From: a virus
Taxonomy: Duplodnaviria > Caudoviricetes
Virus record (IMG/VR): IMGVR_UViG_3300022752_000084
Coordinates: 1-56,730 of that record
Strand: one strand, 5' to 3'
Length of the DNA: 56,730 nucleotides
The notes under the pieces were generated by a model. It was not told where the DNA came from, searched no databases, and saw only the letters and a list, made by a program, of their open reading frames with translations. How positions within the stretch are numbered: position 1 is the stretch's first letter; each line of letters starts with the position of its first letter. A program made the position numbers and the translations under genes. Below are positions 16,814 to 42,992 of the stretch, piece by piece.

Positions 16814-17185
16814 ATGAACAACTCCATGCTCATCATTCAACTTTATAAATATGCAGGAACCTGGGCCTTCACAGACGAAGCTCGTGACCTAACGCACGAA
16901 CCTTTTGTACTAGGCATCCCTGAAATTATTGACAAAATTTTAGAAGATAACGGTATAGTTTCAGAGCAACCTAAGATTCTATTTTCAGCTAAACCCTTTC
17001 CTTATCATCAAGGCTACCTTCATTATACAAACTTTGAAGCTGACGGGGTTTGGTATAAATTATTCTCGACAACTAGCGGAGAAGAAAAGTATGTAGACAA
17101 AAATCTAATTGGTTGGCTTTGTCCTGCGACTCTAAAATACTTCCCAGTACATCCCGAATACATTTACTTTAAACTCGAAGCTTAA
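16814..17185 (+). CDS. DUF6717-like protein
   Basis: YKYAGTWAFTD...EPFVLG..EIID...FSAKPFP...GWLCPATLKYF...P. Confidence 0.7.
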   Translation: MNNSMLIIQLYKYAGTWAFTDEARDLTHEPFVLGIPEIIDKILEDNGIVSEQPKILFSAKPFPYHQGYLHYTNFEADGVWYKLFSTTSGEEKYVDKNLIGWLCPATLKYFPVHPEYIYFKLEA

Positions 17186-17239
17186 CCACGCGGATCAGCA
17201 GTCGATGGCGTCGGCAAATTTGGGTAGGGTTTTGAGATG
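17178..17239 (-). pseudogene. 3' remnant of a tail-fibre chaperone gene plus conserved cassette arm A
   Basis: 17178-17212 is identical (35 nt) to 40656-40690; 17195-17239 encodes HLKTLPKFADAIDC* versus HLKTLPEFKDAIDC* in 40673-40939. Confidence 0.85.
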
Positions 17240-17257
17240 GAGGTGAAAAAGGTTATT

Positions 17258-17440
17258 TCATGTGATTGCATTAAGTTGCTCTTCGGTAGGTTGCGGCAAA
17301 GTCGGGTGTGTCCATTTGGCAATATACTCACCTCTTTCGTCATGGTCGTTCCTAAGAATGATATGGCGAGGTGGGCAATAATCCGCGTGAGTCAAAGATG
17401 GGTAGATCTCACGAATCTTTTGATCAAGGGTTTTTTCCAT
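17258..17440 (-). CDS. XkdW-like tail fibre assembly protein
   Basis: IYPSL...I.LRND.D.RGEYIAKWTHPTLPQPTEEQL. Confidence 0.75.
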   Translation of the reverse strand: MEKTLDQKIREIYPSLTHADYCPPRHIILRNDHDERGEYIAKWTHPTLPQPTEEQLNAIT

Positions 17441-17446
17441 GGTTAA

Positions 17447-19465
17447 TCAAGAAATTGGGTTGGCGCAGAAGAAAGCCCCTGCGTAAACAGTTTTGGCTGC
17501 AGTTGCAGTAAAATCGTATTGGTAAAGGTAGATCGCAAGAGAATCTCCTACATCTGCATAAACAATATCGGCAATGGTAACAAAAAGATCACCCGCCGCT
17601 CCAGAAGGTCCATTGTTTTGGGTGTAACTAGCGGTAAATAGTGAACCGTTTTTGTATATCGCAATTTGCAACACGCAATCATTCGCTCCGGTTATGATTC
17701 CAGCTTTAGCTTTAATGTCATAATATCCAGCACGTGTTACAACAATAAAGCCCGATGCAGGATTGTATATGCCGCCTGTATCGTAATCTTCTACATCAAA
17801 CACAATGCGAGTAAGAGTATTGTTTGCAAGCGAAAAGGTGGCGGTTGTGCGTGCGCGAACAATCTGTCTTGGACTGCCTCCTCCAATCCTTGTTGCCACT
17901 GCAGCGCCAGCACCTGAAACGACCCCCGTGCAATTTGTTAATACAATTTGACTTGACGGAGATGACAAGCTGAGGCTTATATCTTCTAAAAGATTTAAGC
18001 AATTTAGCTTTGTAGAATTTAATGAGTGAGTTGGCGAGTTGCCATAATTAACCCAGTTTTCAACACTTTCCGCTATTACTACTGATGTGTTGTCTATGCC
18101 ACTAAAAGAAGCACTTGCGGAATTGGTATAAATGTTTCTAGCGATCAAACTAGAAATCGTATTTTGACTGGTTTTTATTAGCGTTGAAGCGTTATCTGCT
18201 AAATAAACCCCGTTTTCTATTAGCACGGAACTTGTAGCTTGAGAAGCAGTAGCGCGTACACCAAAATATGGTTTATTGTTTGTGCCATGCACGTTGGCAT
18301 AAAAACTAAGAAAGTTAATGTTTTTGCAATCGCTAATCTTGACATATTCGTCAGCAGTCAATAAAGCGGTTTGAGAGTTTTCAGAAGTAAAATTAACGAG
18401 TGTGATATTAAAGGAATTTTGAAAGAAAGCTAGGTGAGAGTAATTTACATCACCAGTTTCAATAGTAAGGCCATTGATTCTAATGTTAGAGCCCAAGTTG
18501 CAATATAAACCAGTGCCTGTATAATCTCCGATTGTGACCTGCTCCAGTGTCACATAATTTGTTGGGTTAGTTTGACCTAGCGCAATACCATTAGAGCAAT
18601 TAGAAATTATTATATCTTCTAAATGAGCCAAAGTTGATCCATCGACAACTAGAGCATATTCGTTGCCGGTTTGATTTTTTATGTATAGACGCTTTGTGTT
18701 TGTATGTTGCCCCCCTTGGCGAAAGGCAATTCCTGACCCTTGATTATTGTTAATTGTAAAATCTGAAACATAACTAAAACCTCCCGCGAGCCTAAGACCT
18801 GCGCCGGTTGCGCTGGTATTCTTTAAAATTGTCTTTTCGACACCAGCGCCAATTATTGTAATTGGTAGACCAGAATAAAGACCGTATCCTGATGGGTACG
18901 GTTGCACCTGGCTGCTTTCGCTAAAACAATAAGTACCTGTAGGAATATAAAGGATTGCACCACTACCTGTCCCTTGGCAATAAGACAAGCTAGCTTGTAG
19001 GGCAAGCGTATCATCCGTTACTCCATCCCCAACTGCACCAAAGTCCTTAACACTAACAACATCTTTCAGCTTGCTATCAACCGTCCTGGCAACAGCACTA
19101 GCTCCAGCTTGCAAGAAGTTTAACTTAGTCGCATTAATAGCTCCGCTTATATTTACATCAGCATCGATTATCGTACCGCTAGCAATCATTGTGCTAGTTA
19201 CAGTTTCAACATCACCTACAGTTACGACATTATACCCGTTTCTAGATAAAGTTCCAGATACAACTACACCTGATGCTGCGAATAACTGCCCGGTCATGTA
19301 GCCACCGGAAATCGGAACCTTGTTTGATGCAGATACTAACGCAGCATTACCCGAAGCCTGTGCTGTTGTATCAGTTCCAGGTACGGTATCGTTCGCCTCT
19401 AAAGTACGAAAGCCTCGCGGATAAAAGCCGCCACTGTATAGAACTACAGGAATTTGCACTACCAT
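17447..19465 (-). CDS. tail fibre / receptor-binding protein A (beta-helix)
   Basis: Shared N-terminal anchor; VSVKDFGAVGDGVTDDT pectate-lyase-like start; C1q-like C-terminus. Confidence 0.88.
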   Translation of the reverse strand: MVVQIPVVLYSGGFYPRGFRTLEANDTVPGTDTTAQASGNAALVSASNKVPISGGYMTGQLFAASGVVVSGTLSRNGYNVVTVGDVETVTSTMIASGTIIDADVNISGAINATKLNFLQAGASAVARTVDSKLKDVVSVKDFGAVGDGVTDDTLALQASLSYCQGTGSGAILYIPTGTYCFSESSQVQPYPSGYGLYSGLPITIIGAGVEKTILKNTSATGAGLRLAGGFSYVSDFTINNNQGSGIAFRQGGQHTNTKRLYIKNQTGNEYALVVDGSTLAHLEDIIISNCSNGIALGQTNPTNYVTLEQVTIGDYTGTGLYCNLGSNIRINGLTIETGDVNYSHLAFFQNSFNITLVNFTSENSQTALLTADEYVKISDCKNINFLSFYANVHGTNNKPYFGVRATASQATSSVLIENGVYLADNASTLIKTSQNTISSLIARNIYTNSASASFSGIDNTSVVIAESVENWVNYGNSPTHSLNSTKLNCLNLLEDISLSLSSPSSQIVLTNCTGVVSGAGAAVATRIGGGSPRQIVRARTTATFSLANNTLTRIVFDVEDYDTGGIYNPASGFIVVTRAGYYDIKAKAGIITGANDCVLQIAIYKNGSLFTASYTQNNGPSGAAGDLFVTIADIVYADVGDSLAIYLYQYDFTATAAKTVYAGAFFCANPIS

Positions 19466-19557
19466 TATTTAACTCCGCAGATGCCAGACATAGTTTCTAA
19501 GACCGGCAAGACTTGCTCCTTACAGTTTAACTGGTTTTTGTAGTTTCAGCAAACACT
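19463..19557 (-). promoter_or_regulatory. duplicated promoter/leader of fibre cassette A
   Basis: TTGCTG-17 nt-TAAACT on the - strand; 19481-19515 is identical (35 nt) to 36543-36577. Confidence 0.85.
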
Positions 19558-19576
19558 ATTAAAAAATAAGCCTCGG

Positions 19577-19885
19577 TTAACCACGCGCAATCTGCCTCTC
19601 AACACGGTGGTGAGGAACTCCTTGTTCTAATCCGCTCATTGCTCGCTGCAGTGGAACATCACCACCGAAGGGTTCTGTATACCCTTCGACCCCAAGTATC
19701 GAAGCAATAGGTCCAAACGGACCAGTCGCTTGAGAAATATTTCTTGTAAAGTCTGTAAACCCAGGATATCTGGATCGATACTTCTCATACTGCCCTGCCT
19801 TAGTTAGTTCGTCCCCAGAAGGGAGCGCAGATAATCCCAATCGACTACCTGCCATTCTAAATTTCCGAACAATAGGTAACGCCAA
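19577..19885 (-). CDS. hypothetical protein with RMAG motif
   Basis: 102-aa ORF. Confidence 0.65.
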   Translation of the reverse strand: MALPIVRKFRMAGSRLGLSALPSGDELTKAGQYEKYRSRYPGFTDFTRNISQATGPFGPIASILGVEGYTEPFGGDVPLQRAMSGLEQGVPHHRVERQIARG

Positions 19886-19887
19886 GA

Positions 19888-20109
19888 TTAAACAAAGGGT
19901 AAGGAGGGACGAATTGATTGCTGCATGTAAGGCATCTCCCTCTGTTCACCTGGCATCACTGGTTCCCTAAAAGGCGATTTACCACCAGGAATTGCACCTC
20001 CTTCGCGTATTCTCCTGCCAACAGAAGGATCCACATTAGGCAAAGCCGCCATCAACAACTCTGGATCACTTAGATACATTTCTAAAAAAGCCACTGCTTG
20101 AGGATCCAA
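19888..20109 (-). CDS. hypothetical Pro-rich protein
   Basis: 73-aa ORF; TATACT -10 at 20132-20137. Confidence 0.6.
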   Translation of the reverse strand: MDPQAVAFLEMYLSDPELLMAALPNVDPSVGRRIREGGAIPGGKSPFREPVMPGEQREMPYMQQSIRPSLPFV

Positions 20110-20183
20110 AACAATTATTAAAGCTATTAAAAGTATAACTTCAAAACAAAAACCTACACAAGCTTAAGAAAGTCTAAAAAAAC

Positions 20184-20211
20184 TTGACGTCATAAATACA
20201 CCACATACACT
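20184..20211 (+). promoter_or_regulatory. sigma70-type promoter
   Basis: TTGACG-16 nt-TACACT. Confidence 0.6.
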
Positions 20212-20215
20212 GCAT

Positions 20216-21064
20216 TTGTCTATCACTCTTCCAATGGATTTTCAATTCAATCTCAGAGGCACAGCATTAGAACACCGAGAAGCCTCGGCGCTCTTGCAAG
20301 CATCAACTCCAAAAACAAAACAACCTTTTTCAATTGATCTTGAGAAACTTATAGATGTCAAAATACTTGACGCTAATAAGTTATTCTCCATGAGCGTCGA
20401 GCAGCAGAACCCTGTCCTAGCTTCGCTAGCTGTAAAGCTTGCAATCGAAAACAAAAAGACTCCGACAACCAAGCTTGCAGTTGCGAGCAAGAAAAAAGCA
20501 ACAACAAAGCTTGTTGCAACTCCAATCAAAACCCCGCCGAAGAAGGCCGCAAACACAACGGATGACATCATTGACTATTTGTTAATGCATCCTTCATATC
20601 GTTGCTGTGGCGCAGCAATGCTGCTTCTCAAAGGCAACACTAAGGACTGGCAAGCCATCAGAGACGTCGCTATCTCCGTCGTAAACGAAGCGGCTGATGA
20701 TCTGAAGCTCCCTTTATCTTCACCCTTATTTAAGGGCTTCACGCTTGATGCAGAGACGGATACCCTAATTCCGATCGAGAGCAATCAAGCCACGCGCAGA
20801 TGCGACACCTACTACGTTTCGCCTATGTACATCAGTCTTCGGGCTGGTCTTATGTTCTGCATTAAGCACAACCTCGTCAGCATCTCAGAAAATTGGACCG
20901 TTGGTTCTAGGAACGAAGAGTACAATGAAAAGTCAGGCCATCTAAAACGCCGCTACTACCTCTACAAGTTGACCGAACTTGGTGAGAAAATGTGTTCATC
21001 CTGGAGTGATATGGATAAATACATCTACAACTATTACACCCCTAAATCAGGTACTAACCGATGA
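20216..21064 (+). CDS. putative winged-helix DNA-binding protein (start may be ATG 20234)
   Basis: C-terminal RRYYLYKLTELGEK wing motif; Lys-rich linker. Confidence 0.55.
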   Translation: MSITLPMDFQFNLRGTALEHREASALLQASTPKTKQPFSIDLEKLIDVKILDANKLFSMSVEQQNPVLASLAVKLAIENKKTPTTKLAVASKKKATTKLVATPIKTPPKKAANTTDDIIDYLLMHPSYRCCGAAMLLLKGNTKDWQAIRDVAISVVNEAADDLKLPLSSPLFKGFTLDAETDTLIPIESNQATRRCDTYYVSPMYISLRAGLMFCIKHNLVSISENWTVGSRNEEYNEKSGHLKRRYYLYKLTELGEKMCSSWSDMDKYIYNYYTPKSGTNR

Positions 21065-21447
21065 CGGAACTTGTTAAAGACGTTCCCGGAGATCAAGAAG
21101 CGTTTATGTCCGGCATAGCGGACCTTTTCATGGACTACAGCACACTTTTGTCTCCCGAGACAATGTGTACTTTAATAAAGACCGTTATAACGGATCATTT
21201 AAACCACCATATAGACGAAGCCTGCACCTATTTAGCTCTAAGTAGACTTTTTGACGTGGACGTAAACGAGGAGGATGAGGACGAGGAAGAGGAGGATGAG
21301 GACGAGGATGAGGAAGAGGAGGATGAGGATTTCATAAATGAGGAGGGCTTTATGGCTGAAGTGGGTGTATACCACGAGGAGGCAGATGAGGAGAACGAGG
21401 AGGATGCGCCTAGCATAAAAGAAAGAGTAACTAACGATATATTTTAA
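21061..21447 (+). CDS. highly acidic protein
   Basis: D/E run of about 21 residues encoded by GAG/GAT/GAC repeats. Confidence 0.7.
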   Translation: MTELVKDVPGDQEAFMSGIADLFMDYSTLLSPETMCTLIKTVITDHLNHHIDEACTYLALSRLFDVDVNEEDEDEEEEDEDEDEEEEDEDFINEEGFMAEVGVYHEEADEENEEDAPSIKERVTNDIF

Positions 21448-21478
21448 GAGTTACGTTGAGTAAACTCTGTTAGTGTAA

Positions 21479-21510
21479 GCGTCCTCGCTGCTTCGCAGCT
21501 GCGGGGGCGC
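21479..21510 (+). repeat. intergenic GC hairpin repeat, divergent copy 4
   Basis: GCGTCCTCGC-TGCTTCGCAGCT-GCGGGGGCGC directly upstream of polA. Confidence 0.8.
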
Positions 21511-21527
21511 ATTCACTATTTAACACC

Positions 21528-23917: not shown

Positions 23918-23948
23918 GCTAATATAAAGAAGGTTACGTTAGCAGCTC

Positions 23949-25790: not shown

Positions 25791-25800
25791 TTTTCCTCCC

Positions 25801-26610: not shown

Positions 26611-26628
26611 CTTAAACTCCCTTTTTAC

Positions 26629-33200: not shown

Positions 33201-33204
33201 AATT

Positions 33205-33366: not shown

Positions 33367-33367
33367 A

Positions 33368-34029: not shown

Positions 34030-34046
34030 TTCTAAGTTTATCTTAG

Positions 34047-34271
34047 CTAACGATTATCTGCGCGATTCGTTGATCGAGAAATAACTCTTAAATTATCGTT
34101 TTCTCGATTATGGGGATTGTGATCTTTATGATCTACATCCTTGCCATCGCCTTTATGAACACGGCCTTCTTTTTCTAAGTAACGACGAGATTTATTTCGT
34201 GCGGATCTACGTGCTATTTCCGCATCACTGCTTTGGAACTTGCGGTACTCGTCTTTATAATCGCGGGGCAT
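34047..34271 (-). CDS. small HNH protein
   Basis: RDYKDEY...GDGKDVDHKDHNP.N....NLRV.SRSTNR. Confidence 0.8.
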   Translation of the reverse strand: MPRDYKDEYRKFQSSDAEIARRSARNKSRRYLEKEGRVHKGDGKDVDHKDHNPHNRENDNLRVISRSTNRADNR

Positions 34272-34294
34272 AGAGTAAATGACTAGCTTGGTTT

Positions 34295-34324
34295 AAGCTT
34301 AGCCACGCGGATCAGCAGTCGATG
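34295..34324 (-). repeat. conserved downstream arm of fibre cassette B
   Basis: AAGCTTAGCCACGCGGATCAGCAGTCGATG, 29/30 identical to arms A and C; retains IDC* codons. Confidence 0.9.
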
Positions 34325-34325: not shown

Positions 34326-36527
34326 TTATAAAGTCGCCATCATAAACATTAGAAGTTCTTCATATCGAATGCCGTAGCGATCTCCAGCAGGTTTTAATTC
34401 AATACCCTCCTCATCGTATTCGGCTTCCCATTGGTCATAACAAACAATGCCATAGCGGAAAGGATCAAGCTGTTCCTCCTCAAAAATTTCCATAACTTCT
34501 TGAGTAAGTACACCTATATGTATTCGCGCATTTTCGCCTTTCAACAAAACAGCATCTTTAAACAAAAACTTTTTAATTATTCTTTTAATTTTTTTAGCTA
34601 CTCTTTTTTCTGCTTCATTTAATTCTTCAATGTTTTGTTTTTCGCGTTTATCAGATGTATTAATGGTGCCAGTTGCCGCGTAAACGGTACTCCAGCGATA
34701 AGCTGAATCCCCTAATTTTGCAACATTATCAGCGCCAGGCAAAAGATAATTATACTTAAGGTAATATATGTCTCGTGATCCCGAAGAATCTTGAAAAGTA
34801 AACCGACGGGTATTGTCATAAATAGTAAATACACAACCATTATTGGCATCGTTTGTATTTGTAATAATGCTAATTTTAAGAGTTCCCGCTGTGGATATTT
34901 TTAATCCTGCCACGTTGGATGAAAAATGGTCAATTATAAGATGTGTTTGATCATTTGTAACAGTAGAATACGCAGAAGAATCTCCTACAACTACATTTAC
35001 GCCAGTGTTACTATAAGTATGTAAAGTATTTCCTAAGATTTGATTACTAACAGTTAAATTACCTAAAATATTTTGAGAACCAAGGCTTTGGCTTCCTTTT
35101 TGATAAAAATTAGCATAATCAATACTTGTATTAGCTAACGCCGTTGCGTCTGGAGTGCCAATAGCAAGTACCCCTGAAGGAGGTGTATAACTCAAATAAC
35201 CTTCAATATAAGACAACGCAGGGTTATATCCTATCCCGTAATTATCTCTAATAGCCGCTCCAATTCCCCCAGCAATTAAAATAGTGTCATAATTTCCTTC
35301 AAACCAGTTATTATTAATAAAAGAACTTTCTCCGTCTAATCTAATTGCTCTGCCTTTATTATTGTTTTCAAAAACACAGTTAGAAATAAACCACGTCTGT
35401 GTTCCACTAAGATCTAACGCTTCACACTCGTTTCGGTTTATAGCTGTTGATTTACCAACGCTAAAGTGGCATGCAGTAATTGCAAAGCTAGTGCCAGTTC
35501 TCATAGCACCCGTAGTCTTACTATAAGCTAAACCTTTATTAGATACATATTGAATATCGCAATATTCAACGCAACACGATATGCAATCATCAAACTGTAA
35601 AGCAATCCCCGCCCCAACATCAGTGGCACCCGGCCTAGCTAAACCTCCTATTGAACATTGACAAACCAAACAACGATCTGTTCCTTCAATCCATAATTGC
35701 GTAACATTAACAAAATTGGCAAATGTGTATATAGCAGAAGGCTGATACAACTTGAGTGCAAGACCTGCTATTTGAGAGCGATTTTGACCTTTATAAACAA
35801 CAACTTTTTTGCTAGTTCCTTGAAAGGAAGCCGCCTTACCATAAATGCCTATGCCAGTTTCAGCTCCTCCTCCAGTATTATTTCCAAAAATACTTAAACT
35901 TTTACCTCCTCCTCCTCCGTAACTTGCCCCAGAAGTGTTCCAATCAACAGTATCAGAAACAAGAATTTTGCCAATAATTAATAAGGGCAAACTAGAATTT
36001 ACTGCGGCAACAGCAGCATTTTTTAATCTAGTATGGTTATTGCCATCATCAGTCAAATCTCCAGGAATCCCAAAATCTGCTGTGCTGATAAAATCTTTCA
36101 GCTTACTATCAACAGTTCTAGTAGCGGCCCCAGTACCAGCTTGCAAGAAACTAAGTTTAGTTGCATTAATAGCTCCACTTATATTGACATCCGCATCAAT
36201 GATCGTACCGCTAGCAATCATTGTGCTAGTTACAGTTTCAACATCACCGACAGTTACGACATTATACCCGTTTCTACTTAACGTACCTGATACAACTACA
36301 CCTGATGCTGCAAATAACTGTCCGGTCATGTAGCCACCGGAAATTGGCACCTTATTTGATGCAGATACTAATCCCGCGTTACCCGACGCTAGTGCAATAT
36401 TTGCTAGGACTAATGCAGCATTACCCGAAGCCTGTGCTGTTGGATCCGTCGCTGGTCCAATAGTATCCCCAGGAGGAAGAGTACTAAAAGCACCACTAAC
36501 AAGAACTAAAGGAGTTTGAAGTGCCAT
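34326..36527 (-). CDS. tail fibre / tailspike B with peptidase S74 intramolecular chaperone
   Basis: Shared anchor; beta-helix; YRWSTVYAATGTINTSDKREK...HIGV.TQEV...YGIRYEEL. Confidence 0.9.
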   Translation of the reverse strand: MALQTPLVLVSGAFSTLPPGDTIGPATDPTAQASGNAALVLANIALASGNAGLVSASNKVPISGGYMTGQLFAASGVVVSGTLSRNGYNVVTVGDVETVTSTMIASGTIIDADVNISGAINATKLSFLQAGTGAATRTVDSKLKDFISTADFGIPGDLTDDGNNHTRLKNAAVAAVNSSLPLLIIGKILVSDTVDWNTSGASYGGGGGKSLSIFGNNTGGGAETGIGIYGKAASFQGTSKKVVVYKGQNRSQIAGLALKLYQPSAIYTFANFVNVTQLWIEGTDRCLVCQCSIGGLARPGATDVGAGIALQFDDCISCCVEYCDIQYVSNKGLAYSKTTGAMRTGTSFAITACHFSVGKSTAINRNECEALDLSGTQTWFISNCVFENNNKGRAIRLDGESSFINNNWFEGNYDTILIAGGIGAAIRDNYGIGYNPALSYIEGYLSYTPPSGVLAIGTPDATALANTSIDYANFYQKGSQSLGSQNILGNLTVSNQILGNTLHTYSNTGVNVVVGDSSAYSTVTNDQTHLIIDHFSSNVAGLKISTAGTLKISIITNTNDANNGCVFTIYDNTRRFTFQDSSGSRDIYYLKYNYLLPGADNVAKLGDSAYRWSTVYAATGTINTSDKREKQNIEELNEAEKRVAKKIKRIIKKFLFKDAVLLKGENARIHIGVLTQEVMEIFEEEQLDPFRYGIVCYDQWEAEYDEEGIELKPAGDRYGIRYEELLMFMMATL

Positions 36528-36619
36528 TATTTATCTCCGTGTATGCCAGACATAGTTTCTAAGACCGGCAAGACTTGATTCCCTAAGTTTAGCTGGTTTT
36601 TGCAGTTTAAGCAAACACT
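36525..36619 (-). promoter_or_regulatory. duplicated promoter/leader of fibre cassette B
   Basis: TTGCTT-17 nt-TAAACT; homologous to 19463-19557. Confidence 0.85.
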
Positions 36620-36649
36620 CTGCATAATCTCCACATGGGAACAGATTCC

Positions 36650-37891
36650 TTACTTTTTCGCCTTAATAAACCAACCACTCCCGGCACCTTCTACTTTCCA
36701 TCGAGGGCCAAGATTTTTCTTCGAGTACACTAATTGCTTACCATTTGAACTCAAATAATTTCCATTAACCAGATCTAAATCCCCATTCGGGTCGTTGACA
36801 ATATATGCGTCATTTTTTTCATTTCTACCCACAATAATAATCCAATGACCTCCACCAACGGGAGCTCCCACTGGGCCATGATGCAAAATTCCAATCGGAA
36901 CAGGAATGCCTGCAACTAACTGCGAATCAATATCGGACCAATCGCCATTTTGCCTAAACGTTGCTTCAACCCCATAATGAGCTAAAGCTTCAATTTGAGC
37001 CCCGGCATCCGTCGTATCCCCATATTTAAATACGGTAACTATGTACTCATCATCTGATTTAATACTATTAGGTTTCAAATACTTCAACAACATCCCACAC
37101 GAGCTTGAAAAACAAGTTCGAAGTGGGTCGCGCATATTATCCCTCTGCGAGTAATAAGGAACATTCAAAATTAACTTGGAACTGTGTTGCACCTGTGTAG
37201 GAATGCTTTTTGGAGCTGCATCATTAATTATTTTCCAATGTGACGGGTAGAACCACCAAGTTTGGTCTGGTTGAGCCTCTAAAACAATTTTATAATCCGA
37301 TTCGCCAGGAACAATAGTTATGGAATTCCATTCATGTGCCACGCCCTTGGGCACAAAAAGCTTTTCTTCTGGTGTTAAGTCATTTGCTTGCGCCGGTTTG
37401 CGTTTTAACCAAGTATCCTGCTGAGCTAAAATACTGTGCGCCAAAACAGCATTTTTAACACTTGTTAAAAACAAAGCTTGCTCATCTTTACGACGATTAA
37501 GAAGACCTTGAACAACCACGCCGTCGGCTTTACTCCACCTCGGAAATTCAGCCGCAACTATGGTTTTATCCGTCTTATCATTAAGCAACTTCAATAATGT
37601 AGATTCTTTAAACGCGCCCAACCCGACATTGTAGCTAAAGCTAACAAGGGCATCGAACTGATTTTGGTTGACGGGAACTTTTAGCGCCTCGGTAACCCCA
37701 TTTTCAAAAAAACTTACATCTTTACGCAGCATTTCCTCAGCCTCTGCCGCCGAAATTACCTTACCTGGCGTTACATCCGAGCCCGTATGTCCATAACCTA
37801 TGGTCCAAACCCCAGCAATATCCTGATATGCTGTAAGTTCGCACCCTTCAAATTTCTTAATCAGCGTTAATCCGGCTGAAGATATTTTCAT
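36650..37891 (-). CDS. endolysin: GH24 lysozyme plus C39-like peptidase
   Basis: [39 protein letters not shown]; VPYYSQRD...TCFSSSC...GHW...NDP. Confidence 0.92.
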
Positions 37892-37894
37892 GGC

Positions 37895-38329
37895 TCAATA
37901 CACGTCAACTCCAACCCGATATTCACAACCACTGCGGCCTTTTAGTGCTACATACATATAATGAGCACCAGATGCGTTAATTGTAGTTTTAGTTACCGCG
38001 TTATTGCGTGAGCTTAATTTAGAAGGTTTAGCTTCCATAACCAAACTGCCGGCACTATTTAAGATCGCAACATTACCAACACTGTTTATATTCCGAATGT
38101 TTACTTGTAAGATCCCAGTCGCATTCAATGTCAGTGGATAATAATCGGATATTGAATAAAATCCGTCTGCAACATATTCCCTAGATGTTTGAGTATTCAC
38201 AACCACGCCGCTGTTACTTACCACTCGGCGCTGGTCGAAATGTGTCGAAGTGTCACGCTGGCGTCCGCCTGTAGATACACCACTAGCAAGGACTACATCC
38301 AGTTCTAAATTTTTAGTAAACTGCGACAT
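37895..38329 (-). CDS. putative virion structural protein
   Basis: Start reassigned to MSQFTK; TAGAAT -10 at 38355-38360; beta-rich. Confidence 0.6.
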   Translation of the reverse strand: MSQFTKNLELDVVLASGVSTGGRQRDTSTHFDQRRVVSNSGVVVNTQTSREYVADGFYSISDYYPLTLNATGILQVNIRNINSVGNVAILNSAGSLVMEAKPSKLSSRNNAVTKTTINASGAHYMYVALKGRSGCEYRVGVDVY

Positions 38330-38430
38330 TTGGCAGACAGGTCTAACTTTCCATATTCTACTCGGTATTCGTAAGCATGGCTCTTTTAATTTTTTAGTTA
38401 GACTGACGTAGAGATCTACCCGGCAAAACA

Positions 38431-38685
38431 ATGTTTGTCACTATATTAACAGGTGTTGGCGGTGCTATTGCCCTGTTTACCTGGCTTCATGAGCAGCGTC
38501 AACAGGTTTTGAATGCGCGTTTTGAAAATATAAAAAAGCGGCTTTCTTATATCGAAAGAAAACTTGAAGAATTACCCATAAATTTTGTTTTAAAATCCGA
38601 TTTAAATGACGAACTAAATGATATTAGAACTTGGCTCCGTTCGATAAACGACAAGCTAGACCAGCTTATTCTTAACAAAAGATAA
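38431..38685 (+). CDS. membrane-anchored coiled-coil protein (holin-like)
   Basis: N-terminal TM helix plus heptads; near the endolysin. Confidence 0.55.
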   Translation: MFVTILTGVGGAIALFTWLHEQRQQVLNARFENIKKRLSYIERKLEELPINFVLKSDLNDELNDIRTWLRSINDKLDQLILNKR

Positions 38686-38690
38686 AATAC

Positions 38691-39359
38691 TTAGGATATT
38701 TGATTAATTGTAACAATTAATGAAGGGATGTCAGGTCTTGTTGGATTTGTTAAACCGCTGTAAGCGGCAATCTTGACATTTACATCTGCAGAAGACCAAG
38801 CTAACTGGATATTATCTCCTTCACCCGCATTAACAAAGTAATTCCACGCGGCAACGCTTTTTGCGTTATTTCCTTGTAAAGTTATCCGTGTATTTGTATA
38901 CGGAACATTTTGATTATTTTTAACAACCCAAATATCTATTTCGTCTGTTCCCCCATCTGTTTTAATTAGTTGAGCAGAAAACTGAACATCATAAACTCCA
39001 GATAAAGGTACAACCATCCGTGAACCAGAAACCAGAGTAACTCCGTCAGTAGAAGACACGGAATTAAGTGTCATTATATTTACACCAGTTGCTGTTACAT
39101 TATTTTGAAATGTTGTATCAAAAAAAGCGCCATATTGGTGCGAGGTTTGTACAGCCTGCGCAAAAACTGGTAGGGTGCTCATGGAGTTCACCACACCGCT
39201 CAACGTTATTTGCTTAGGTTGGGCGTCAGCTTGAATTTCATTCGTATCTAGAACTAAAAAAACATCGTTTTCCCCAATATTTGCAGTAGAAACTAGGTCA
39301 GTTAGACGCGAAACGGAACGACTAAAATCACGAGCATCGTCTAAATTCCTGCGTACCAT
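38691..39359 (-). CDS. putative tail/virion protein with C1q-like beta domain
   Basis: YGAFFDTT.Q...GVYDVQFSAQL...AAWNYFV...PSLIVTINQI. Confidence 0.7.
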   Translation of the reverse strand: MVRRNLDDARDFSRSVSRLTDLVSTANIGENDVFLVLDTNEIQADAQPKQITLSGVVNSMSTLPVFAQAVQTSHQYGAFFDTTFQNNVTATGVNIMTLNSVSSTDGVTLVSGSRMVVPLSGVYDVQFSAQLIKTDGGTDEIDIWVVKNNQNVPYTNTRITLQGNNAKSVAAWNYFVNAGEGDNIQLAWSSADVNVKIAAYSGLTNPTRPDIPSLIVTINQIS

Positions 39360-39378
39360 GAATTTTAAAAATTTAATC

Positions 39379-39789
39379 TTATTCTACTTCAGTTTCGCCT
39401 TCTGGCGAAGCAGACAATTTTAACGGTTTTTTACACAATTCTTCGTAATTTCGTGCAGCAATACTTTGTTCATGATTATAACTAAGCCAATTCCATATAT
39501 TGCTTTCTCGTTCCTCGGTCCAAAAAAATTGTTGGCGGAACCATGTAAACCATTCTTCGTCGCTTTTTTGTAAGTTGCAGGTTGGGCAACACGCTAATAA
39601 ATTTCCTCGTTTTGTTGGGCCGCCACGCGCTCGGGGAACTATGTGATCCAGGGTGTAGGCGCGATCAGATCCGCAATACGCGCAAGCGTCTCCCCAAGCT
39701 TCAAGTATATCTTTACGAAATCTTTTACGTGCATTCCTACGTTGTAAACAAGAAAGATTAAAAACTAAATCATCTTCGGAGGCGGTCAA
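39379..39789 (-). CDS. HNH endonuclease (McrA-like)
   Basis: CAYCG...TLDHIVPRARGG...NLLACC..CN..KS. Confidence 0.9.
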   Translation of the reverse strand: MTASEDDLVFNLSCLQRRNARKRFRKDILEAWGDACAYCGSDRAYTLDHIVPRARGGPTKRGNLLACCPTCNLQKSDEEWFTWFRQQFFWTEERESNIWNWLSYNHEQSIAARNYEELCKKPLKLSASPEGETEVE

Positions 39790-39846
39790 ACCAACATTCC
39801 GACTAACCTATTCTACTTATAAAAAAGTACCAGTTGACTCTTTAAT

Positions 39847-40044
39847 TCAATAAAATTTCTTTTTGATCTCTTCAATTTTGTCATCTTCGGTTCTGAAATT
39901 TTTAAGAATACGCACTCCTTTTATAAAGAGCTGCGCTACGCTATTCTGACGTAACTTGCTAAGTCCGATCACTTCTGAACTAATAAATAATAGAAAGAAG
40001 AATAGAGCTTCCCACGAGATTTTAAACCCAAGAATCGTTAACAT
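39847..40044 (-). CDS. small membrane protein (possible holin)
   Basis: Hydrophobic N-terminus, SEVIG...NSVAQL, basic tail. Confidence 0.6.
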   Translation of the reverse strand: MLTILGFKISWEALFFFLLFISSEVIGLSKLRQNSVAQLFIKGVRILKNFRTEDDKIEEIKKKFY

Positions 40045-40137
40045 AGTTGTGAGATAACTACGTCTAGTCTAGCTTAATTTTTTAATAGAGGATTACTTCC
40101 TTTCCTTGAGCCCTTTCATCGGGCCATGCCTTGGGTC

Positions 40138-40653
40138 GCTAAAGATCATTATCGCACGCATTGAAGCCGCTCTAGTACGTGTTGCTGAACACAAATCGCT
40201 GGTTTGCTTCGCATTTCTCTCATGGCCCCAGTAAAGGTGACTACTCGTGATTGGGAAGTTGTTCAAGGGCGCGGCAGATAGTGTCAAGTTCGCTGATATT
40301 CTACTTTTCTTTCCCGAAGTTAAAGGGAGTTATAACTCCCGTATTGACCTTCGTTGCGGGAGTTATAAGTACTGCAAAGAAGAAATGATAACAAAAATAG
40401 AGGCATTTATCAATGCTTACCGGAATTAGTGCAATATTGGGAAGGTGACTACTCGGATTCCCGATAGTTGGCGTTTATCGAGAAAACAAGTTCGTCGGCA
40501 ATGTCGAGCACATCTTGACGGATGGCATCAGCACCAACTATCCGGTAATTCCAGATAGTTGCTAAAGCTCATTATCGCACGCATTAAAGCCGTTCTTGTA
40601 CGCATTGCTGAACACAAACCAATACCTGCCAGACCCAGTAACGAAGGTGACTA
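40138..40653 (-). repeat. mosaic repeat region with gene-end remnants
   Basis: AAGGTGACTA at 40234, 40442 and 40644; 58-nt duplication 40138-40195 / 40561-40618 (52/58); palindromes at 40330-40368 and 40536-40561. Confidence 0.8.
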
Positions 40654-40655
40654 TT

Positions 40656-40690
40656 AAGCTTAACCACGCGGATCAGCAGTCGATGGCGTC
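40656..40690 (-). repeat. conserved downstream arm of fibre cassette C
   Basis: 35 nt identical to 17178-17212; includes the chaperone stop codon. Confidence 0.9.
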
Positions 40691-40939
40691 TTTAAACTCG
40701 GGAAGAGTCTTCAGGTGCTCGTAGGCCTGTTTGATGGGATTTGGCCCATCAAGATCCACGGGGAACTCGAATGACTTGATAGATAACGGCACGGCGGTGT
40801 TGGCAGCCTCGCTATTCAGATAAATGCTGGCTGAAAATGTGCCGCTTGTTTTCTTTTCTATTAGGACGGATTCAATCCTGCAATAACAACCGTCTGCCTG
40901 GAAGCCAAAAGGCGTTGTGGTGCTGATCAAAAGGGCCAT
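40673..40939 (-). CDS. tail fibre assembly chaperone-like protein
   Basis: Directly downstream of fibre C; NPIKQAYEHLKTLPEFKDAIDC C-terminus. Confidence 0.75.
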   Translation of the reverse strand: MALLISTTTPFGFQADGCYCRIESVLIEKKTSGTFSASIYLNSEAANTAVPLSIKSFEFPVDLDGPNPIKQAYEHLKTLPEFKDAIDC

Positions 40940-40988
40940 GGTTTTGCTGCGTAAATAATTTTCAGAGTAGCACCGCTGAGTGCTGGGA

Positions 40989-42992
40989 CTAGGTTGTGCT
41001 CAGAAGGTAGCCATCAAGACGACACCCTGCTGGACTTGTGCTTGGCGTCCCCACCACAAGCACATAAAGCTCTACTGTTTCGTTGACGGCCAGCTTCAGC
41101 ACTGCGCTTACTGAGCTGCCATACCCGGTCATCAATGGAGTCTTGGAGCGCAGTACGCCGTTTTGATAAAGGGCTACCGTGTTAATTGCGGATGCATCCA
41201 GCTCAACCGAACCGTTGAACTGGTAATAGCCTGGCACAATGGCAGTAAATGTGCTGCTTGCGAATTCACCAAATGAATCCCATGTCTCCGTTCCATCCAG
41301 GATGACTTTTGTCCATGTGATATTTGCCAATGTTTGAACCGTGCTGCCAATCGCTCTGAAGGTTGACGTGTTGTTGAGCGGCCTAGCAAGGAGATACCTA
41401 GTCGGCTTGGTTGTTTCAATGAAGCCGATGTTCTTCAGTGACTGCCCTGATTGGTTATTGACGATGTAACCGGAAGCTCCGCAGTCTGCGTATCCGCCAA
41501 CCACTGAATTGCTTGCGCCGGTGATGTAGTAGGCGGTGTCATAAGCGCCTACCTGGTTAAATGAAAAACAGGCAAAGAAAGCGGCAGACTTGATGGAGTA
41601 GTAATGGTTCTCAATACTGTTATTGGCCACCACCGCCGCTGGAGCATTGCTGGTCAGCTCAACGCCAATTGTGTTTGCACCAGGGGTTCCAGAGTGCACC
41701 AGTGTGTTAGCAGAAATTAGAAAGCTGCCTGTCTGGTTGTTCGGTGCAATTTTGATGTAACTTTGTCCAGTGCCAATGGCGTCCGTGGTGCTTGAAATCA
41801 GCGTGCAACCCAAAACTTTACTTTTGCCAGCGGCTCCTTCCAGGCTAATTCCAGTACTTTTAAATCCTTCTGAATGGCAATTCTGAAAGATTGCATAACC
41901 AGCACTGCTTGAAACTCCACTTCCTTGGACTTGGTAAGCAATTACACCACCATCAGATTTGCAATTAAAGAAATGAGCAAACGGCCCCCTAACATGATAT
42001 GCTGCATAAAGAGGAGCTGATGGATATTGCCCGTTTGGCATATTGACATAACATTGATTAAAGTCCCAAGCATACGAATCAAGATAATCGCTTGGATTAT
42101 CCATGTAAAAGCCGTATTCACGGCAACGCATGACAACTACTCGTTCAAATCTAGACCCACGTGCGTATTGAAAATAAACACCTCGCGTAGCTATATTTTG
42201 TCCATCAAGAAATAAATCATAAAGTCCGTTTTGAAACTCGCCAGCAGGATTTTGTGTTTGGCTAATCATATAAATAGATTGATCTGTAGTTATTGTTGCT
42301 CCGTACCTTGTGGCATTTGGTGCATTTTCAGAAGTCAATCCCCTTAAACCCACGTTGGGTTTTAAAATAATTGGGGAAGTTATATAATAAGTGCCTGCAG
42401 GAAAACAAACATCAGAATAACCGTATCCAGTTGCGGCAGCGTTGATTGCATTATTAATAGCGTTTGTACAATCTACTGCTCCATTAGGATTAGCTCCAAA
42501 ATCTAAAACACTAATAAAATCCTTCAGCTTACTATCAACCGTCCTGGCAACACCGCTTGCGCCAGCTTGCAAAAAATTAAGTTTAGTTGCATTAATAGCT
42601 CCACTTATATTTACATCCGCATCGATTATCGTACCACTAGCAATCATTGTGCTAGTTACAGTTTCAACATCACCTACAGTTACGACATTAAATCCGTTTC
42701 TAGATAAAGTTCCAGATACAACTACACCTGATGCTGCGAACAACTGCCCGGTCATGTAGCCACCGGAGATTGGCACCTTATTTGATGCAGATACTAATCC
42801 CGCGTTACCCGACGCTAGTGCAGTACCTGCTAGAACTAATCCAGCGTTACCCGACGCTAATGCAGTATTTGCTAGAACTAACGCAGCATTACCTGAAGCC
42901 TGTGCTGTTGTATCAGTTCCAGGTACGGTATCTCCGGGAAATAACTGGCTAAAGAAACCACTAGCCAATACAATGGGACTTTGTATAGTCAT
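40989..42992 (-). CDS. tail fibre / receptor-binding protein C (beta-helix)
   Basis: Shared anchor with ASGNAxLVLA repeats; ISVLDFGA.P.G..DCT.AI; C1q-like C-terminus. Confidence 0.88.
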   Translation of the reverse strand: MTIQSPIVLASGFFSQLFPGDTVPGTDTTAQASGNAALVLANTALASGNAGLVLAGTALASGNAGLVSASNKVPISGGYMTGQLFAASGVVVSGTLSRNGFNVVTVGDVETVTSTMIASGTIIDADVNISGAINATKLNFLQAGASGVARTVDSKLKDFISVLDFGANPNGAVDCTNAINNAINAAATGYGYSDVCFPAGTYYITSPIILKPNVGLRGLTSENAPNATRYGATITTDQSIYMISQTQNPAGEFQNGLYDLFLDGQNIATRGVYFQYARGSRFERVVVMRCREYGFYMDNPSDYLDSYAWDFNQCYVNMPNGQYPSAPLYAAYHVRGPFAHFFNCKSDGGVIAYQVQGSGVSSSAGYAIFQNCHSEGFKSTGISLEGAAGKSKVLGCTLISSTTDAIGTGQSYIKIAPNNQTGSFLISANTLVHSGTPGANTIGVELTSNAPAAVVANNSIENHYYSIKSAAFFACFSFNQVGAYDTAYYITGASNSVVGGYADCGASGYIVNNQSGQSLKNIGFIETTKPTRYLLARPLNNTSTFRAIGSTVQTLANITWTKVILDGTETWDSFGEFASSTFTAIVPGYYQFNGSVELDASAINTVALYQNGVLRSKTPLMTGYGSSVSAVLKLAVNETVELYVLVVGTPSTSPAGCRLDGYLLSTT

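What the first reader, a model, noticed from the sequence alone, without database searches (positions are those of the whole stretch)
17178..42992. Three dispersed tail-fibre cassettes with conserved arms and swapped middles: a candidate receptor-exchange system
Seen: fibres A (17447-19465), B (34326-36527) and C (40989-42992) share a near-identical N-terminal anchor ending at RTVDSKLKD, then diverge completely. Each uses a different chaperone solution: an XkdW-like gene, a fused S74 domain, or a separate DAIDC-ending gene. All three cassettes nevertheless end in the same 30-35 nt arm, AAGCTTA[A/G]CCACGCGGATCAGCAGTCGATG (17178, 34295, 40656). That arm is the 3' end of the C-type chaperone gene, which is intact in C, a 14-codon remnant in A and 3 codons in B. 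A and B also share a 95-nt promoter/leader, whereas C sits in the structural operon. The variable parts differ visibly in base composition (B is AT-rich, distal C is GC-richer). Inference: constant 5' and 3' homology arms let whole receptor-binding modules be replaced by recombination at three loci. No invertase or reverse transcriptase is visible, so this differs from shufflons and DGRs.
Basis: partly seen in the sequence, partly recalled or inferred. Interest (0 to 1): 0.85.

Follow-up and report, generated by a model that had tools for sequence, protein, structure and literature searches.

The report
Swappable tailspike cassettes in lake phage
An uncultured lake-water phage carries three tailspike genes that share the same attachment end and the same short sequence at the far end, and its relatives carry many unrelated receptor-binding middles between those ends; this is a clear natural case of modular host-range exchange, a kind of system already described in other phages.

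Summary
Three minus-strand tailspike genes (A 17447-19465, B 34326-36527, C 40989-42992) share a ~135-158 aa N-terminal anchor. Each cassette ends in the same 30-nt arm (3 of 3 sites, 0 expected).

In related viral and metagenome contigs the flanks are 90-96% identical but the middles differ: 22 anchor-bearing fibres fall into 18 unrelated body types. Two body types sit at different loci in different genomes. One 94-96% identical relative lacks cassette A altogether; in the window that cassette is bounded by an 11-bp direct repeat.

The 3' arm has two parts:
- the invariant C-terminal coding end (KTLPEFADAIDC*) of a small, widespread, fibre-adjacent gene of unknown function (phrog_18037);
- a 15-nt core, CGCGTGGYTAAGCTT, found only at cassette junctions (11-nt form CGCGTGGYTAA: 16 occurrences vs 0.9 expected).

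Best reading: evolutionary module exchange by recombination at conserved coding arms, not a programmed switch. No invertase, integrase or reverse transcriptase was found among the ORFs scanned. Conserved motifs flanking receptor-binding domains are already published for multi-tailspike coliphages (PMC10408124), so this is a new variant of a known kind. Chaperone and promoter roles remain unproven.

The parts
17447..19465 (-). Tailspike A (672 aa): shared anchor (residues 1-135) followed by a pectate-lyase-like beta-helix body
   Evidence: ORF. Pfam PF12708, E 4.5e-15. PDB sequence hits to Sf6 tailspike and pectin lyases. The body is 75% identical (aa) to the locus-B fibre of L017.
19038..19465 (-). 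5' arm of A (anchor coding DNA)
   Evidence: Repeat families D1 and D6; protein alignment.
19466..19557 (-). Leader of A, shared with B
   Evidence: Repeat D5: 134 nt at 81%; sequence. No promoter consensus found.
19577..19587 (+). Upstream copy of the core (TTAACCACGCG). Together with 17182-17192 it brackets the 2395-bp A cassette.
   Evidence: The empty site in L102 has a single copy.
17258..17440 (-). XkdW-like 60-aa ORF behind A
   Evidence: Pfam PF09636, 28.1 bits against a cut-off of 24.6. Function unknown.
17178..17257 (-). 3' arm of A: a remnant of the constant end of the small gene, plus the core at 17178-17192. The remnant reads NNLFHLHLKTLPKFADAIDC* in frame behind the TGA stop of the XkdW-like ORF.
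34326..36527 (-). Tailspike B (733 aa): shared anchor, an AT-rich body, and a C-terminal S74 intramolecular chaperone domain (residues 625-685, about 34473-34655)
   Evidence: Pfam PF13884, E 3.7e-9. PDB hits to T5 L-shaped fibre, phi29 appendage and endosialidase chaperone domains.
36070..36527 (-). 5' arm of B (anchor coding DNA)
   Evidence: Repeat families D1 and D3. Homology with G001 resumes at window 36070.
36528..36619 (-). Leader of B, shared with A
   Evidence: Repeat D5; sequence.
34295..34324 (-). 3' arm of B: 3 codons plus stop of the small gene (out of frame with B), and the core
   Evidence: Homology with G001, L023, L025, L027 and L028 starts or ends at 34310-34311.
34047..34271 (-). 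HNH_3 endonuclease gene (74 aa). It is the constant downstream neighbour of locus B.
   Evidence: Pfam PF13392. Present behind every locus-B allele seen.
40989..42992 (-). Tailspike C (667 aa): shared anchor followed by a GC-richer beta-helix body. It lies last in the structural operon, and its start overlaps the stop of the 169-aa gene upstream.
   Evidence: Pfam PF12708 and PF13229; PDB hits. The body has no relative among the 22 fibres.
42493..42992 (-). 5' arm of C (anchor coding DNA)
   Evidence: Homology with L017 and L019-L024 ends at window 42493.
40673..40939 (-). Small fibre-adjacent gene (88 aa) with a variable N-terminus and a constant C-terminus, GPNPIKQAYEHLKTLPEFKDAIDC
   Evidence: phrog_18037, unknown function. 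Family alignment. AlphaFold2 model at pLDDT 84 with no PDB match.
40656..40717 (-). 3' arm of C: the last ~15 codons of the small gene plus the core at 40656-40670
   Evidence: repeat D10.
40097..40655 (.). Variable, repeat-rich spacer behind the C arm. It is replaced by other genes in L017 and G002.

Best explanation
The window is about 70% of the genome of an uncultured lake-water phage. It encodes three paralogous tailspikes, which are probably polysaccharide-degrading receptor-binding proteins.

Each cassette has a constant-variable-constant layout.
- The constant 5' part encodes the anchor and neck that attach the spike to the tail.
- The variable middle encodes the beta-helix body together with its body-specific accessory. 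That accessory is the variable N-terminus of a small phrog_18037 gene, an S74 domain, or XkdW-type or fibre-assembly genes.
- The constant 3' part is the invariant C-terminal coding end of the small gene plus a 15-nt core, CGCGTGGYTAAGCTT.

Because both ends are kept alike, co-infecting relatives can swap whole middles by homologous recombination. Foreign cassettes that lack the small gene enter by one homologous and one illegitimate or microhomology crossover, which leaves a short stump of the old 3' end. Over time this gives a population in which each locus holds many alternative specificities, and cassettes move between loci or are gained and lost.

Shown here: the repeats, the different middles between the same flanks, the transfer of body types between loci, and the presence/absence of cassette A with direct repeats.

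Inferred: that recombination uses the arms, that the spikes bind different receptors, and that all three are mounted on virions.
For: Arms:
- The 3' arm occurs at 3 of 3 cassettes with 0 expected by chance. The anchors are repeated x3.

Different middles between like flanks:
- G001 is 96% identical to window 20163-34311 and 90% identical to 36070-37569, with another body in between.
- G002 is 91% identical to 48210-42792, then differs until 40096.
- Loci L017-L031 show the same pattern.
- The 22 fibres form 18 body clusters.

Same body type at different loci:
- The winA body is 75% identical to the L017 locus-B fibre.
- The locus-B body of G001 and L025 is 80% identical to the locus-C body of L031.

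Arms far better kept than their surroundings:
- L031 is 64-75% identical in the structural genes, 88-93% in the neck, and 100% over the 32-nt arm.
- G003, an otherwise unrelated 79.8-kb phage, shares the neck at 83-87%.
- Within the lineage the last 12 codons are 90% identical at DNA level. In the wider family the figure is 77% for pairs of like protein identity.

Stumps of the 3' end behind other accessory solutions:
- winA, winB, L017_C and L022/L030 each have a stump with a different junction.
- L022/L030 carry a 45-aa ORF that joins a spike-neck-like start directly to KTLPEFADAIDC. This looks like an emptied cassette.

Breakpoints inside the 5' arm at several places: G002 at about aa 67, L027_B1 at about aa 108, and G003, L029 and L031 upstream of GVVVSGTL. 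The anchors are a patchwork of A-, B- and C-like segments.

Cassette A indel: L102 lacks window 17193-19576, and an 11-bp repeat flanks the cassette in the window.

Core at junctions: the core occurs 16 times in 968 kb against 0.92 expected, always at a junction.

Other lakes: runs X6 and X9 cover the flanks but have depth 0 over the bodies.

No alternative machinery: no recombinase or reverse-transcriptase domain was found among the ORFs scanned.
Against: - No recombination event was observed. Everything rests on comparing short-read assemblies.
- The anchors share exact runs of 47-54 nt and Logan contigs break there, so some body-to-upstream-flank links could be chimeric.
- The arms are short (30-60 nt at the 3' end).
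- No single-strand annealing recombinase was identified. The only candidates are an exonuclease (phrog_298, 28304-29083) and a sub-threshold SSB hit. The window is only ~70% complete.
- Conservation of the 3' arm in intact genes is largely explained by selection on the protein. The C-terminal 24 aa are nearly invariant across 21 aligned family members.
- Some exchanges ignore the 3' arm, as in G002 and in the different continuation after the stop in L019-L022 and L030.
- Only one close relative spans locus A.
Confidence: 0.75

Rival explanations
1. The arms are by-products rather than tools. The anchor and the C-terminal tail of the small gene are conserved only because the proteins need them, and the core is some local signal. 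The middles were replaced by illegitimate recombination and then selected, and the arms did not raise the exchange rate.
For: - The C-terminal 24 aa of the small protein are nearly invariant across 21 aligned family members.
- Other lineages follow the gene with their own conserved hairpins rather than with this core.
- Some swaps end outside the arm.
Against: - Non-coding stumps of the arm are kept at about 97-100% identity in winA, winB and L017_C, where no protein constraint applies.
- All four independent stumps are at most ~52 nt of a ~270-nt gene.
- DNA identity of the arm within the lineage (0.91) exceeds that of family pairs with like protein identity (0.77).
- Homology breaks cluster at 42493, 36070-36090 and 34310-34311.
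Confidence: 0.12
2. The cassettes are moved by a dedicated mechanism acting on the core CGCGTGGYTAAGCTT. This could be a nuclease-stimulated repair event (for example by the HNH gene beside locus B), or excision and re-insertion of small circles, as described for PeSL elements in T4-type phages.
For: - The A cassette is bracketed by 11-bp direct repeats of the core, and the empty site in L102 keeps one copy.
- In G001, L023 and L025 a 61-aa ORF is bracketed by two cores.
- In L028 an unrelated accessory gene abuts the core exactly.
- The core occurs 16 times against 0.92 expected, only at junctions.
- An HNH_3 gene lies ~25-35 nt downstream of the core at locus B in every allele seen.
Against: - No integrase, invertase or transposase domain was found in the ORFs scanned.
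- Breakpoints are scattered over both arms, as expected for general recombination.
- The core is absent from the L019-L022 and L030 arms and from relatives L097-L101.
- A deletion between two short direct repeats explains L102 equally well.
- No circles could be looked for, because only contigs were available, not raw reads.
Confidence: 0.1
3. Assembly artefact. The repeated anchors caused chimeric contigs, so the three-locus layout, or the apparent variety of middles per locus, is not real.
For: - All data are short-read assemblies.
- Logan contigs stop inside the anchors at 36181-36548 and 42607-42903.
Against: - Exact repeats between the anchors are only 47-54 nt long.
- The 3' joins cross only a 30-nt repeat, and independent assemblies agree on them: IMG/VR contigs, JGI and other metagenome contigs, and Logan contigs of other studies.
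- The first 120 nt of each anchor are locus-specific and match the flank in 8 of 10 relatives. The two exceptions, L017_B and L027_B2, carry diverged sequences, not copies of the window's A.
- L102 and the window agree on both sides of the A site.
Confidence: 0.03

Closest known systems
Conserved DNA motifs before and after the receptor-binding domain in multi-tailspike coliphages (Kutter-, Gamaleya-, Kaguna-, Kayfuna-, Justusliebig-, Nouzillyvirus). Source: PMC10408124; section 20 and passages read.
   Same: - Several tailspike genes per genome.
[quoted passage not shown]
- These motifs were proposed as recombination hotspots for swapping receptor-binding domains.
   Different: - Here the loci are dispersed over 25 kb rather than adjacent.
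- The 3' arm is the constant coding end of a separate small gene, kept as a stump when that gene is replaced, and is not a terminator-like non-coding motif.
- There is an extra 15-nt core with direct-repeat indels.
- The variety of alleles per locus is documented directly from metagenomes.
- The paper's supplementary figures with the motifs were not seen.
Anchor/enzymatic-domain modularity of Klebsiella phage depolymerases. Source: PMC8262889; abstract and passages read.
   Same: An N-terminal anchor module with an exchangeable C-terminal specificity module. Horizontal transfer is the driver.
   Different: That work is experimental domain swapping in cultured phages. It describes no 3' arm and no dispersed paralogous loci.
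PeSL regulatory cassettes that mediate modular shuffling and mini-circle formation in T4-type phages. Source: PMC2839356; abstract read.
   Same: Short conserved repeats at the borders of insertions, deletions and replacements. The idea that a repeat-bounded gene can leave and re-enter a genome.
   Different: PeSLs are a promoter plus a terminator stem-loop. No promoter, terminator or conserved fold was found in this arm. Circles were not testable here.
Invertible tail-fibre segments of Mu (G segment) and P1 (C segment), and plasmid shufflons (recalled from general knowledge; not checked in any call).
   Same: A constant N-terminal fibre part, with a variable C-terminal part and its accessory gene exchanged as one unit.
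   Different: Those systems use a site-specific invertase and inverted repeats within one genome. Here all arms are direct repeats, no invertase was found, and the alternatives lie in other genomes.
Metaviromic islands. Source: PMC3909814; search listing and start of abstract only.
   Same: Host-recognition genes that fail to recruit reads from other samples while the rest of the phage genome does.
   Different: That is a pattern rather than a mechanism. The present case shows the borders of such islands at base resolution.

Membership tests
Modular tailspike / receptor-binding protein with conserved anchor and exchangeable body | N-terminal anchor conserved among paralogues and relatives | tested here: met
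   85-90% aa identity to the window's C anchor among window B, window A, G001 and G003 (G003 over the neck only).
Modular tailspike / receptor-binding protein with conserved anchor and exchangeable body | Beta-helix or otherwise unrelated C-terminal bodies downstream of the anchor | tested here: met
   Pfam PF12708 and PF13229 in A and C, S74 in B. 18 body clusters among 22 fibres.
Modular tailspike / receptor-binding protein with conserved anchor and exchangeable body | Receptor binding or depolymerase activity, and presence in the virion | not testable with these tools
   The host is unknown and there is no isolate.
Recombination-hotspot motifs flanking receptor-binding domains (PMC10408124) | DNA motifs up- and downstream of the variable part that are better conserved than their surroundings, across genomes | tested here: met
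   In L031 the arm is 100% identical, against 64-75% in the structural genes.
Invertible fibre segments / shufflons | Site-specific invertase gene | tested here: not met
   No Resolvase or integrase domain in the ORFs scanned. ORF 24587-25180 has only HTH_7 plus an HNH-like motif. The window is ~70% complete, so absence is not proven.
Invertible fibre segments / shufflons | Inverted repeats bounding the variable segments | tested here: not met
   All three arms and all anchors are in direct orientation.
Diversity-generating retroelement | Reverse transcriptase plus a template/variable repeat pair | tested here: not met
   No reverse-transcriptase hit. The middles are unrelated proteins, not point-mutated repeats.
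PeSL-like mobile regulatory cassette | Strong promoter plus terminator stem-loop in the repeat | tested here: not met
   No site at the arms in the scans. Consensus fold is -10 kcal/mol with a covariation term of 0.1.
PeSL-like mobile regulatory cassette | Repeats at the borders of indels between close relatives | tested here: met
   A cassette compared with L102. Two cores around the 61-aa ORF in G001, L023 and L025.
Peptidase_S74 intramolecular chaperone (fibre B) | Match to the domain model above its cut-off at the C-terminus | tested here: met
   PF13884, 37.2 bits against a cut-off of 22. PDB chains 4uw8, 3gud and 3gw6 matched. Autocleavage was not tested.
XkdW (60-aa ORF behind A) | Match to the Pfam model above its cut-off | tested here: met
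   28.1 bits against 24.6, covering profile positions 17-47 of 57. The family has no tested function, so 'chaperone' is a guess.
phrog_18037 (small gene behind C) | Match to the family profile over most of its length | tested here: met
   E 1e-7 to 9e-9 for three members. The family function is unknown. There were 0 PDB fold matches at E<=0.001 and 21 matches to uncharacterised viral proteins.

The most novel reading that the evidence does not exclude
The 15-nt core CGCGTGGYTAAGCTT, with the adjoining arm, is a portable attachment site. Under this reading, whole tailspike cassettes (leader, spike, accessory gene) leave one locus and enter another core elsewhere in the genome. This could happen through small circles or through nuclease-stimulated repair involving the neighbouring HNH gene. 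Phages of this lineage could then vary not only which spikes they carry but also how many, and where.

A weaker side idea: the in-frame stumps behind the stop codons of the XkdW-like ORF and of the L017 spike could be read through, adding the constant KTLP.FADAIDC tail to other accessory modules.
Probability: 0.15. Interest if true: 0.7.

Novelty: new variant of a known kind. Interest (0 to 1): 0.5.

Why it matters
- It gives base-level borders for a natural plug-in system of host-recognition modules in an uncultured freshwater phage lineage, with at least 18 alternative modules already catalogued.
- The constant parts are coding on both sides: the spike anchor and the tail of a partner gene. 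This suggests a general design rule, in which the variable spike body and the variable half of its partner travel together between two constant halves.
- It explains why such genes appear as gaps when one phage genome is used to recruit reads from other lakes.
- The small partner gene family is widespread (111 viral contigs) and uncharacterised, and is worth a functional study.
- The arms are ready-made landing sites for anyone who later cultures this phage and wants to study host range in laboratory strains.

Tried and rejected
- Complex prediction of full-length spike C with the small protein (alignment A4): the first call found the queue full. This says nothing either way about binding.
- Exact 22-nt arm in viral contigs: 0 hits. 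Relatives were reached through protein searches instead.
- Megablast of the A region against isolated phages: no match. The best DNA-polymerase relatives among isolates are Pseudanabaena phages at 28% aa, then mycobacteriophages at 26%, so no host is assigned. One family member of the small gene is labelled as coming from an Actinomycetota MAG; this is only a lead.
- Arm as terminator, promoter or RNA: nothing at the arms in the consensus scans, 0 Rfam matches and 0 tRNAs in the window, and a weak consensus fold with no informative covariation.
- TAGTCACCT motif: only 3 copies, all in 40235-40653, and no more than chance in number.
- The 102-aa ORF ending in the upstream core and G001's 61-aa ORF are not homologous.
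- Host search with two patterns from the repeat-rich spacer 40100-40650: 0 hits in genome contigs and 0 in viral contigs.
- Fold search of the small protein against the PDB: 0 matches at E<=0.001.
- ORF 24587-25180 as an invertase: rejected. It has HTH_7 only and no catalytic domain.
- Using window C's own arm as the reference for DNA conservation understated the lineage's homogeneity. A first pairwise run included a spurious hit and was redone.


Full report
WHAT THE WINDOW IS

The window is a whole IMG/VR virus record of 56,730 bases, classed as linear and ~70% complete.
- It encodes a family-A DNA polymerase, a primase, thymidylate synthase, an exonuclease, a MoxR/VWA pair, a lysozyme-type endolysin and a minus-strand structural block.
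- It has no tRNA and no Rfam match.
- No isolated phage is close. Megablast found nothing, and the best polymerase relatives are Pseudanabaena phages at 28% aa.
- Runs that hold it are lake-water or freshwater metagenomes.

CHECK OF THE OBSERVATION

- The 30-nt arm is at 17178, 34295 and 40656, all in the same orientation. None of 100 shuffles gave a match.
- ORFs A (17447-19465), B (34326-36527) and C (40989-42992) are on the minus strand. They align almost perfectly up to RTVDSKLKD and not at all afterwards.
- A and C then start a pectate-lyase-like beta-helix (PF12708). B ends in a Peptidase_S74 chaperone domain. PDB sequence hits agree: Sf6-type tailspikes for A and C, and T5, phi29 and endosialidase chaperone domains for B.
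- Behind A lies a 60-aa XkdW-domain ORF. Behind C lies an 88-aa ORF ending in DAIDC.
- The arm is the end of that 88-aa gene in C, a stump in A and three codons in B.
- A and B share a ~92-nt non-coding leader (D5).
- The composition differences are as described.
- Refinement: the first ~120 nt of each anchor are locus-specific (52-67% between paralogues). The remainder is 82-98% alike.

The anchor protein found three viral contigs. An anchor alignment found 268 metagenome matches, of which the best 80 were kept. Fifteen of those 80 (L017-L031) have anchors at least 60% identical to the query.

Flanks alike, middles different (blastn against the window):
- G001 is 96% identical to window 20163-34311 and 90% identical to 36070-37569, but carries another 724-aa spike plus an intact 99-aa DAIDC gene in between.
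- G002 is 91% identical to 48210-42792. It then has a different multi-gene fibre block until window 40096.
- L017 links a different locus-C spike (S74-type), the arm, a different spacer, and 4 kb at 92% identity to 40096-36090. At locus B it then carries a spike whose leader, N-terminus and body resemble the window's A (80% nt, 75% aa).
- L023, L024, L025, L027 (two spikes in tandem) and L028 are further locus-B alleles. L018-L022 are further locus-C alleles.

Clustering the bodies of all 22 anchor-bearing fibres gives 18 clusters, using at least 40% identity over at least half the shorter body. The only repeats are:
- winA with L017_B;
- G001_B with L025_B and L031_C;
- L022 with L030.

Two of these three clusters span different loci.

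Logan contigs from two further studies (X6, X9) cover 32000-34311, 35906-40245 and 42416-45000. Their depth is 0 to 0.87 over the B body bins (34604-35905) and 0 over the C body bins (41114-42415). Their contigs run on, unlike the window, from 34311.

ANATOMY OF THE 3' ARM

A fuzzy search of the window and 83 other sources found the arm in 14 places. The universal part is about 42 nt, AAAACCCTNCCCGARTTYGCCGACGCCATCGACTGCTGATCC, which encodes KTLPEFADAIDC*. After it come three continuations:
- the core and TAATARTCACC (winC, L017, L018, L029, L031);
- the core, then a 61-aa ORF, then a second core and the HNH gene (G001, L023, L025);
- a different sequence leading into an 83-aa gene (L019-L022, L030).

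Where the small gene is intact (81-109 aa), its N-terminus varies with the spike body. G001 and L031, which share a body type, also share this part.

Where another accessory solution is used, only a stump remains, and each stump has a different junction:
- winA: XkdW-like ORF;
- winB and L017_C: S74 domain;
- L022 and L030: two other small genes.

In L022 and L030 the stump forms a 45-aa ORF. Its start looks like the neck of a spike (FTQSGAGAIQRSVKNKL) joined straight to KTLPEFADAIDC, that is, a cassette with its middle deleted.

THE SMALL GENE FAMILY

- The gene matches phrog_18037, of unknown function.
- It has 27 clusters in the large protein collection. About 60 N-terminal residues are hypervariable and the 24 C-terminal residues are nearly invariant.
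- 111 viral contigs encode a relative, and 80 loci were fetched.
- In 74 loci an ORF of the family was recognised. In 57 of those 74, a same-strand ORF of at least 400 aa ends within 400 nt upstream.
- Of the 50 distinct upstream proteins, 39 match PF12708, 15 match Beta_helix and 8 carry a T7 tail-fibre N-terminus. So the gene is a general companion of beta-helix spikes with various anchors.
- Its AlphaFold2 model (pLDDT 84: four strands plus a C-terminal helix) has no PDB match. It matches 21 uncharacterised viral proteins at E<=0.001.
- 'Chaperone' is therefore a reasonable guess, not a finding.

Protein constraint explains why intact genes keep the arm. It does not explain the near-identity of the non-coding stumps. 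Nor does it explain why DNA identity of the last 12 codons is 0.91 within the lineage, against 0.77 for family pairs of like protein identity.

THE CORE AND THE A INDEL

- Viral contig L102 is 94-96% identical to window 5279-17192 and 19577-29058, and lacks everything between.
- Its junction reads ...CTCGAAGCTTAGCCACGCG|CAATCTG.... In the window the 2395-bp cassette is bracketed by TTAACCACGCG at 17182-17192 and 19577-19587.
- CGCGTGGYTAA occurs 16 times in the 968 kb of window plus loci, against 0.92 expected from length alone. Every occurrence is at a cassette border. This includes L028, where an unrelated accessory gene abuts it.
- The core is missing from the more distant relatives L097-L101. 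In those contigs homology to the window stops exactly at 17178, and the fibre module lies next to the DUF6717 and 994-aa genes.
- The direction of the event, insertion or deletion between repeats, cannot be decided.

HOW IT MOST LIKELY WORKS

The variable unit is the spike body plus the body-specific half of its partner gene. The constant units on either side are coding: the anchor/neck and the partner's C-terminal tail. Selection on those proteins keeps 60-450 nt of DNA alike among co-occurring phages, and recombination between co-infecting genomes swaps what lies between.

Evidence that the crossovers are general rather than site-specific:
- 5' breakpoints lie at several places in the anchor: G002, L027_B1, and the different N-termini joined at GVVVSGTL in G003, L029 and L031.
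- The anchors are a patchwork of A-, B- and C-like segments.
- The 3' junctions are scattered.

Evidence that the arms travel or are homogenised beyond vertical descent:
- L031 has the arm at 100% and the neck at 88-93% identity, with 64-75% identity elsewhere.
- G003, an otherwise unrelated complete 79.8-kb phage, shares the neck at 83-87%.

No invertase, integrase or reverse transcriptase was found among the ORFs scanned. ORF 24587-25180 has only an HTH_7 plus an HNH-like motif.

The arm is not a recognisable terminator, promoter or structured RNA.

Whether A, B and C are mounted together is open. Their locus-specific first ~40 residues could mean separate docking sites.

COMPARISON WITH WHAT IS KNOWN

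[quoted passage not shown] It proposes them as recombination hotspots. That is the same idea.
- PMC8262889 (passages) shows experimentally that anchors and enzymatic domains are true modules.
- PMC2839356 (abstract) describes repeat-bounded gene shuffling and mini-circles in T4-type phages. This is the nearest analogue for the core-bounded A cassette.
- The read-recruitment gaps match 'metaviromic islands' (PMC3909814; listing only).
- Mu/P1 invertible segments share the constant/variable logic, but their defining invertase and inverted repeats are absent here (recalled, not checked in a call).

What differs here:
- the loci are dispersed;
- the 3' arm is coding and survives as a stump;
- there is a core with direct-repeat indels;
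- emptied cassettes occur;
- the allele variety per locus is read directly from natural populations.

LIMITS

- All comparisons use short-read assemblies. Exact repeats between the anchors are 47-54 nt and Logan contigs break there, so long reads are needed to phase the loci.
- Only one close relative spans locus A.
- The host is unknown.
- The complex prediction gave no answer.

VERDICT

This is a well-documented new variant of a known kind of system, of moderate interest.

Noticed in passing
window 40097-40679: The spacer behind the C arm has no sizeable ORF. It holds two ~100-nt repeats (61 nt at 89%: 40135-40195 and 40558-40618), a 33-nt periodic unit and a 16-nt perfect palindrome. In runs X1 and X2 the bin 40246-40679 has ~30 times the depth of the rest of the phage (2630 vs ~90, and 219 vs ~7), with many joints and loose ends, like a multi-copy dispersed element. 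Two patterns from it found nothing in genome contigs or viral contigs.
   Followed up: partly
window 17195-17257; L017 4243-4293: The arm stump behind A is in frame with the XkdW-like ORF and separated from it by a single TGA. The stump behind the S74-type spike of L017 is in frame behind its TAA. Both carry the same E-to-K change (LPKFADAIDC). Two of three stumps being in frame is within chance. Read-through was not tested.
   Followed up: no
L022 2571-2708; L030 2214-2351: A 45-aa ORF joins a spike-neck-like start (GGGFTQSGAGAIQRSVKNKL) directly to the constant tail KTLPEFADAIDC. It looks like a cassette whose middle was deleted between the two constant parts.
   Followed up: partly
L011 (G001) 14146-14405; also L023 and L025: A 61-aa ORF sits between two copies of the core (CCGCGTGGTTAAGC ... 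CCGCGTGGCTAAGC). Its homologue in L099 (73 aa) ends differently, so the ORF is cut or fused at the core.
   Followed up: partly
L102, between the counterparts of window 13253 and 13721: The close relative has an extra ~1.55 kb with a 397-aa minus-strand ORF containing a LysM-like stretch. It is absent from the window.
   Followed up: partly
window 3304-3362, 4772-4830, 6404-6462: Three copies of a 59-nt intergenic repeat (CCTCGCTCGCTTCGCTCACTGCGGG...) in the plus-strand early region (family D7).
   Followed up: no
window 10331-13253: A MoxR-type AAA ATPase (PF20030 bpMoxR, E 2.6e-56) is followed by a VWA-domain protein that also has an HNH-like phrog hit. This is a MoxR-VWA pair inside a phage.
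   Followed up: no
window 51381-51911 (+) and 52045-52242: A ferritin-like gene lies on the opposite strand inside the structural block. A 54/72-nt tandem repeat lies inside the neighbouring 226-aa ORF (family D2).
   Followed up: no
L097-L101 compared with the window: More distant relatives (65-88% nt identity) have a different gene order. The fibre module lies directly beside the DUF6717 and 994-aa genes, there is no spike at the locus-B position, and homology stops exactly at window 17178.
   Followed up: partly
window 5098-5658, 24587-25180, 34047-34271: Three HNH-type genes are in the window: two clear HNH_3 hits, and one ORF with an HNH-like motif plus HTH_7. One of the HNH_3 genes is the fixed neighbour of locus B.
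   Followed up: partly
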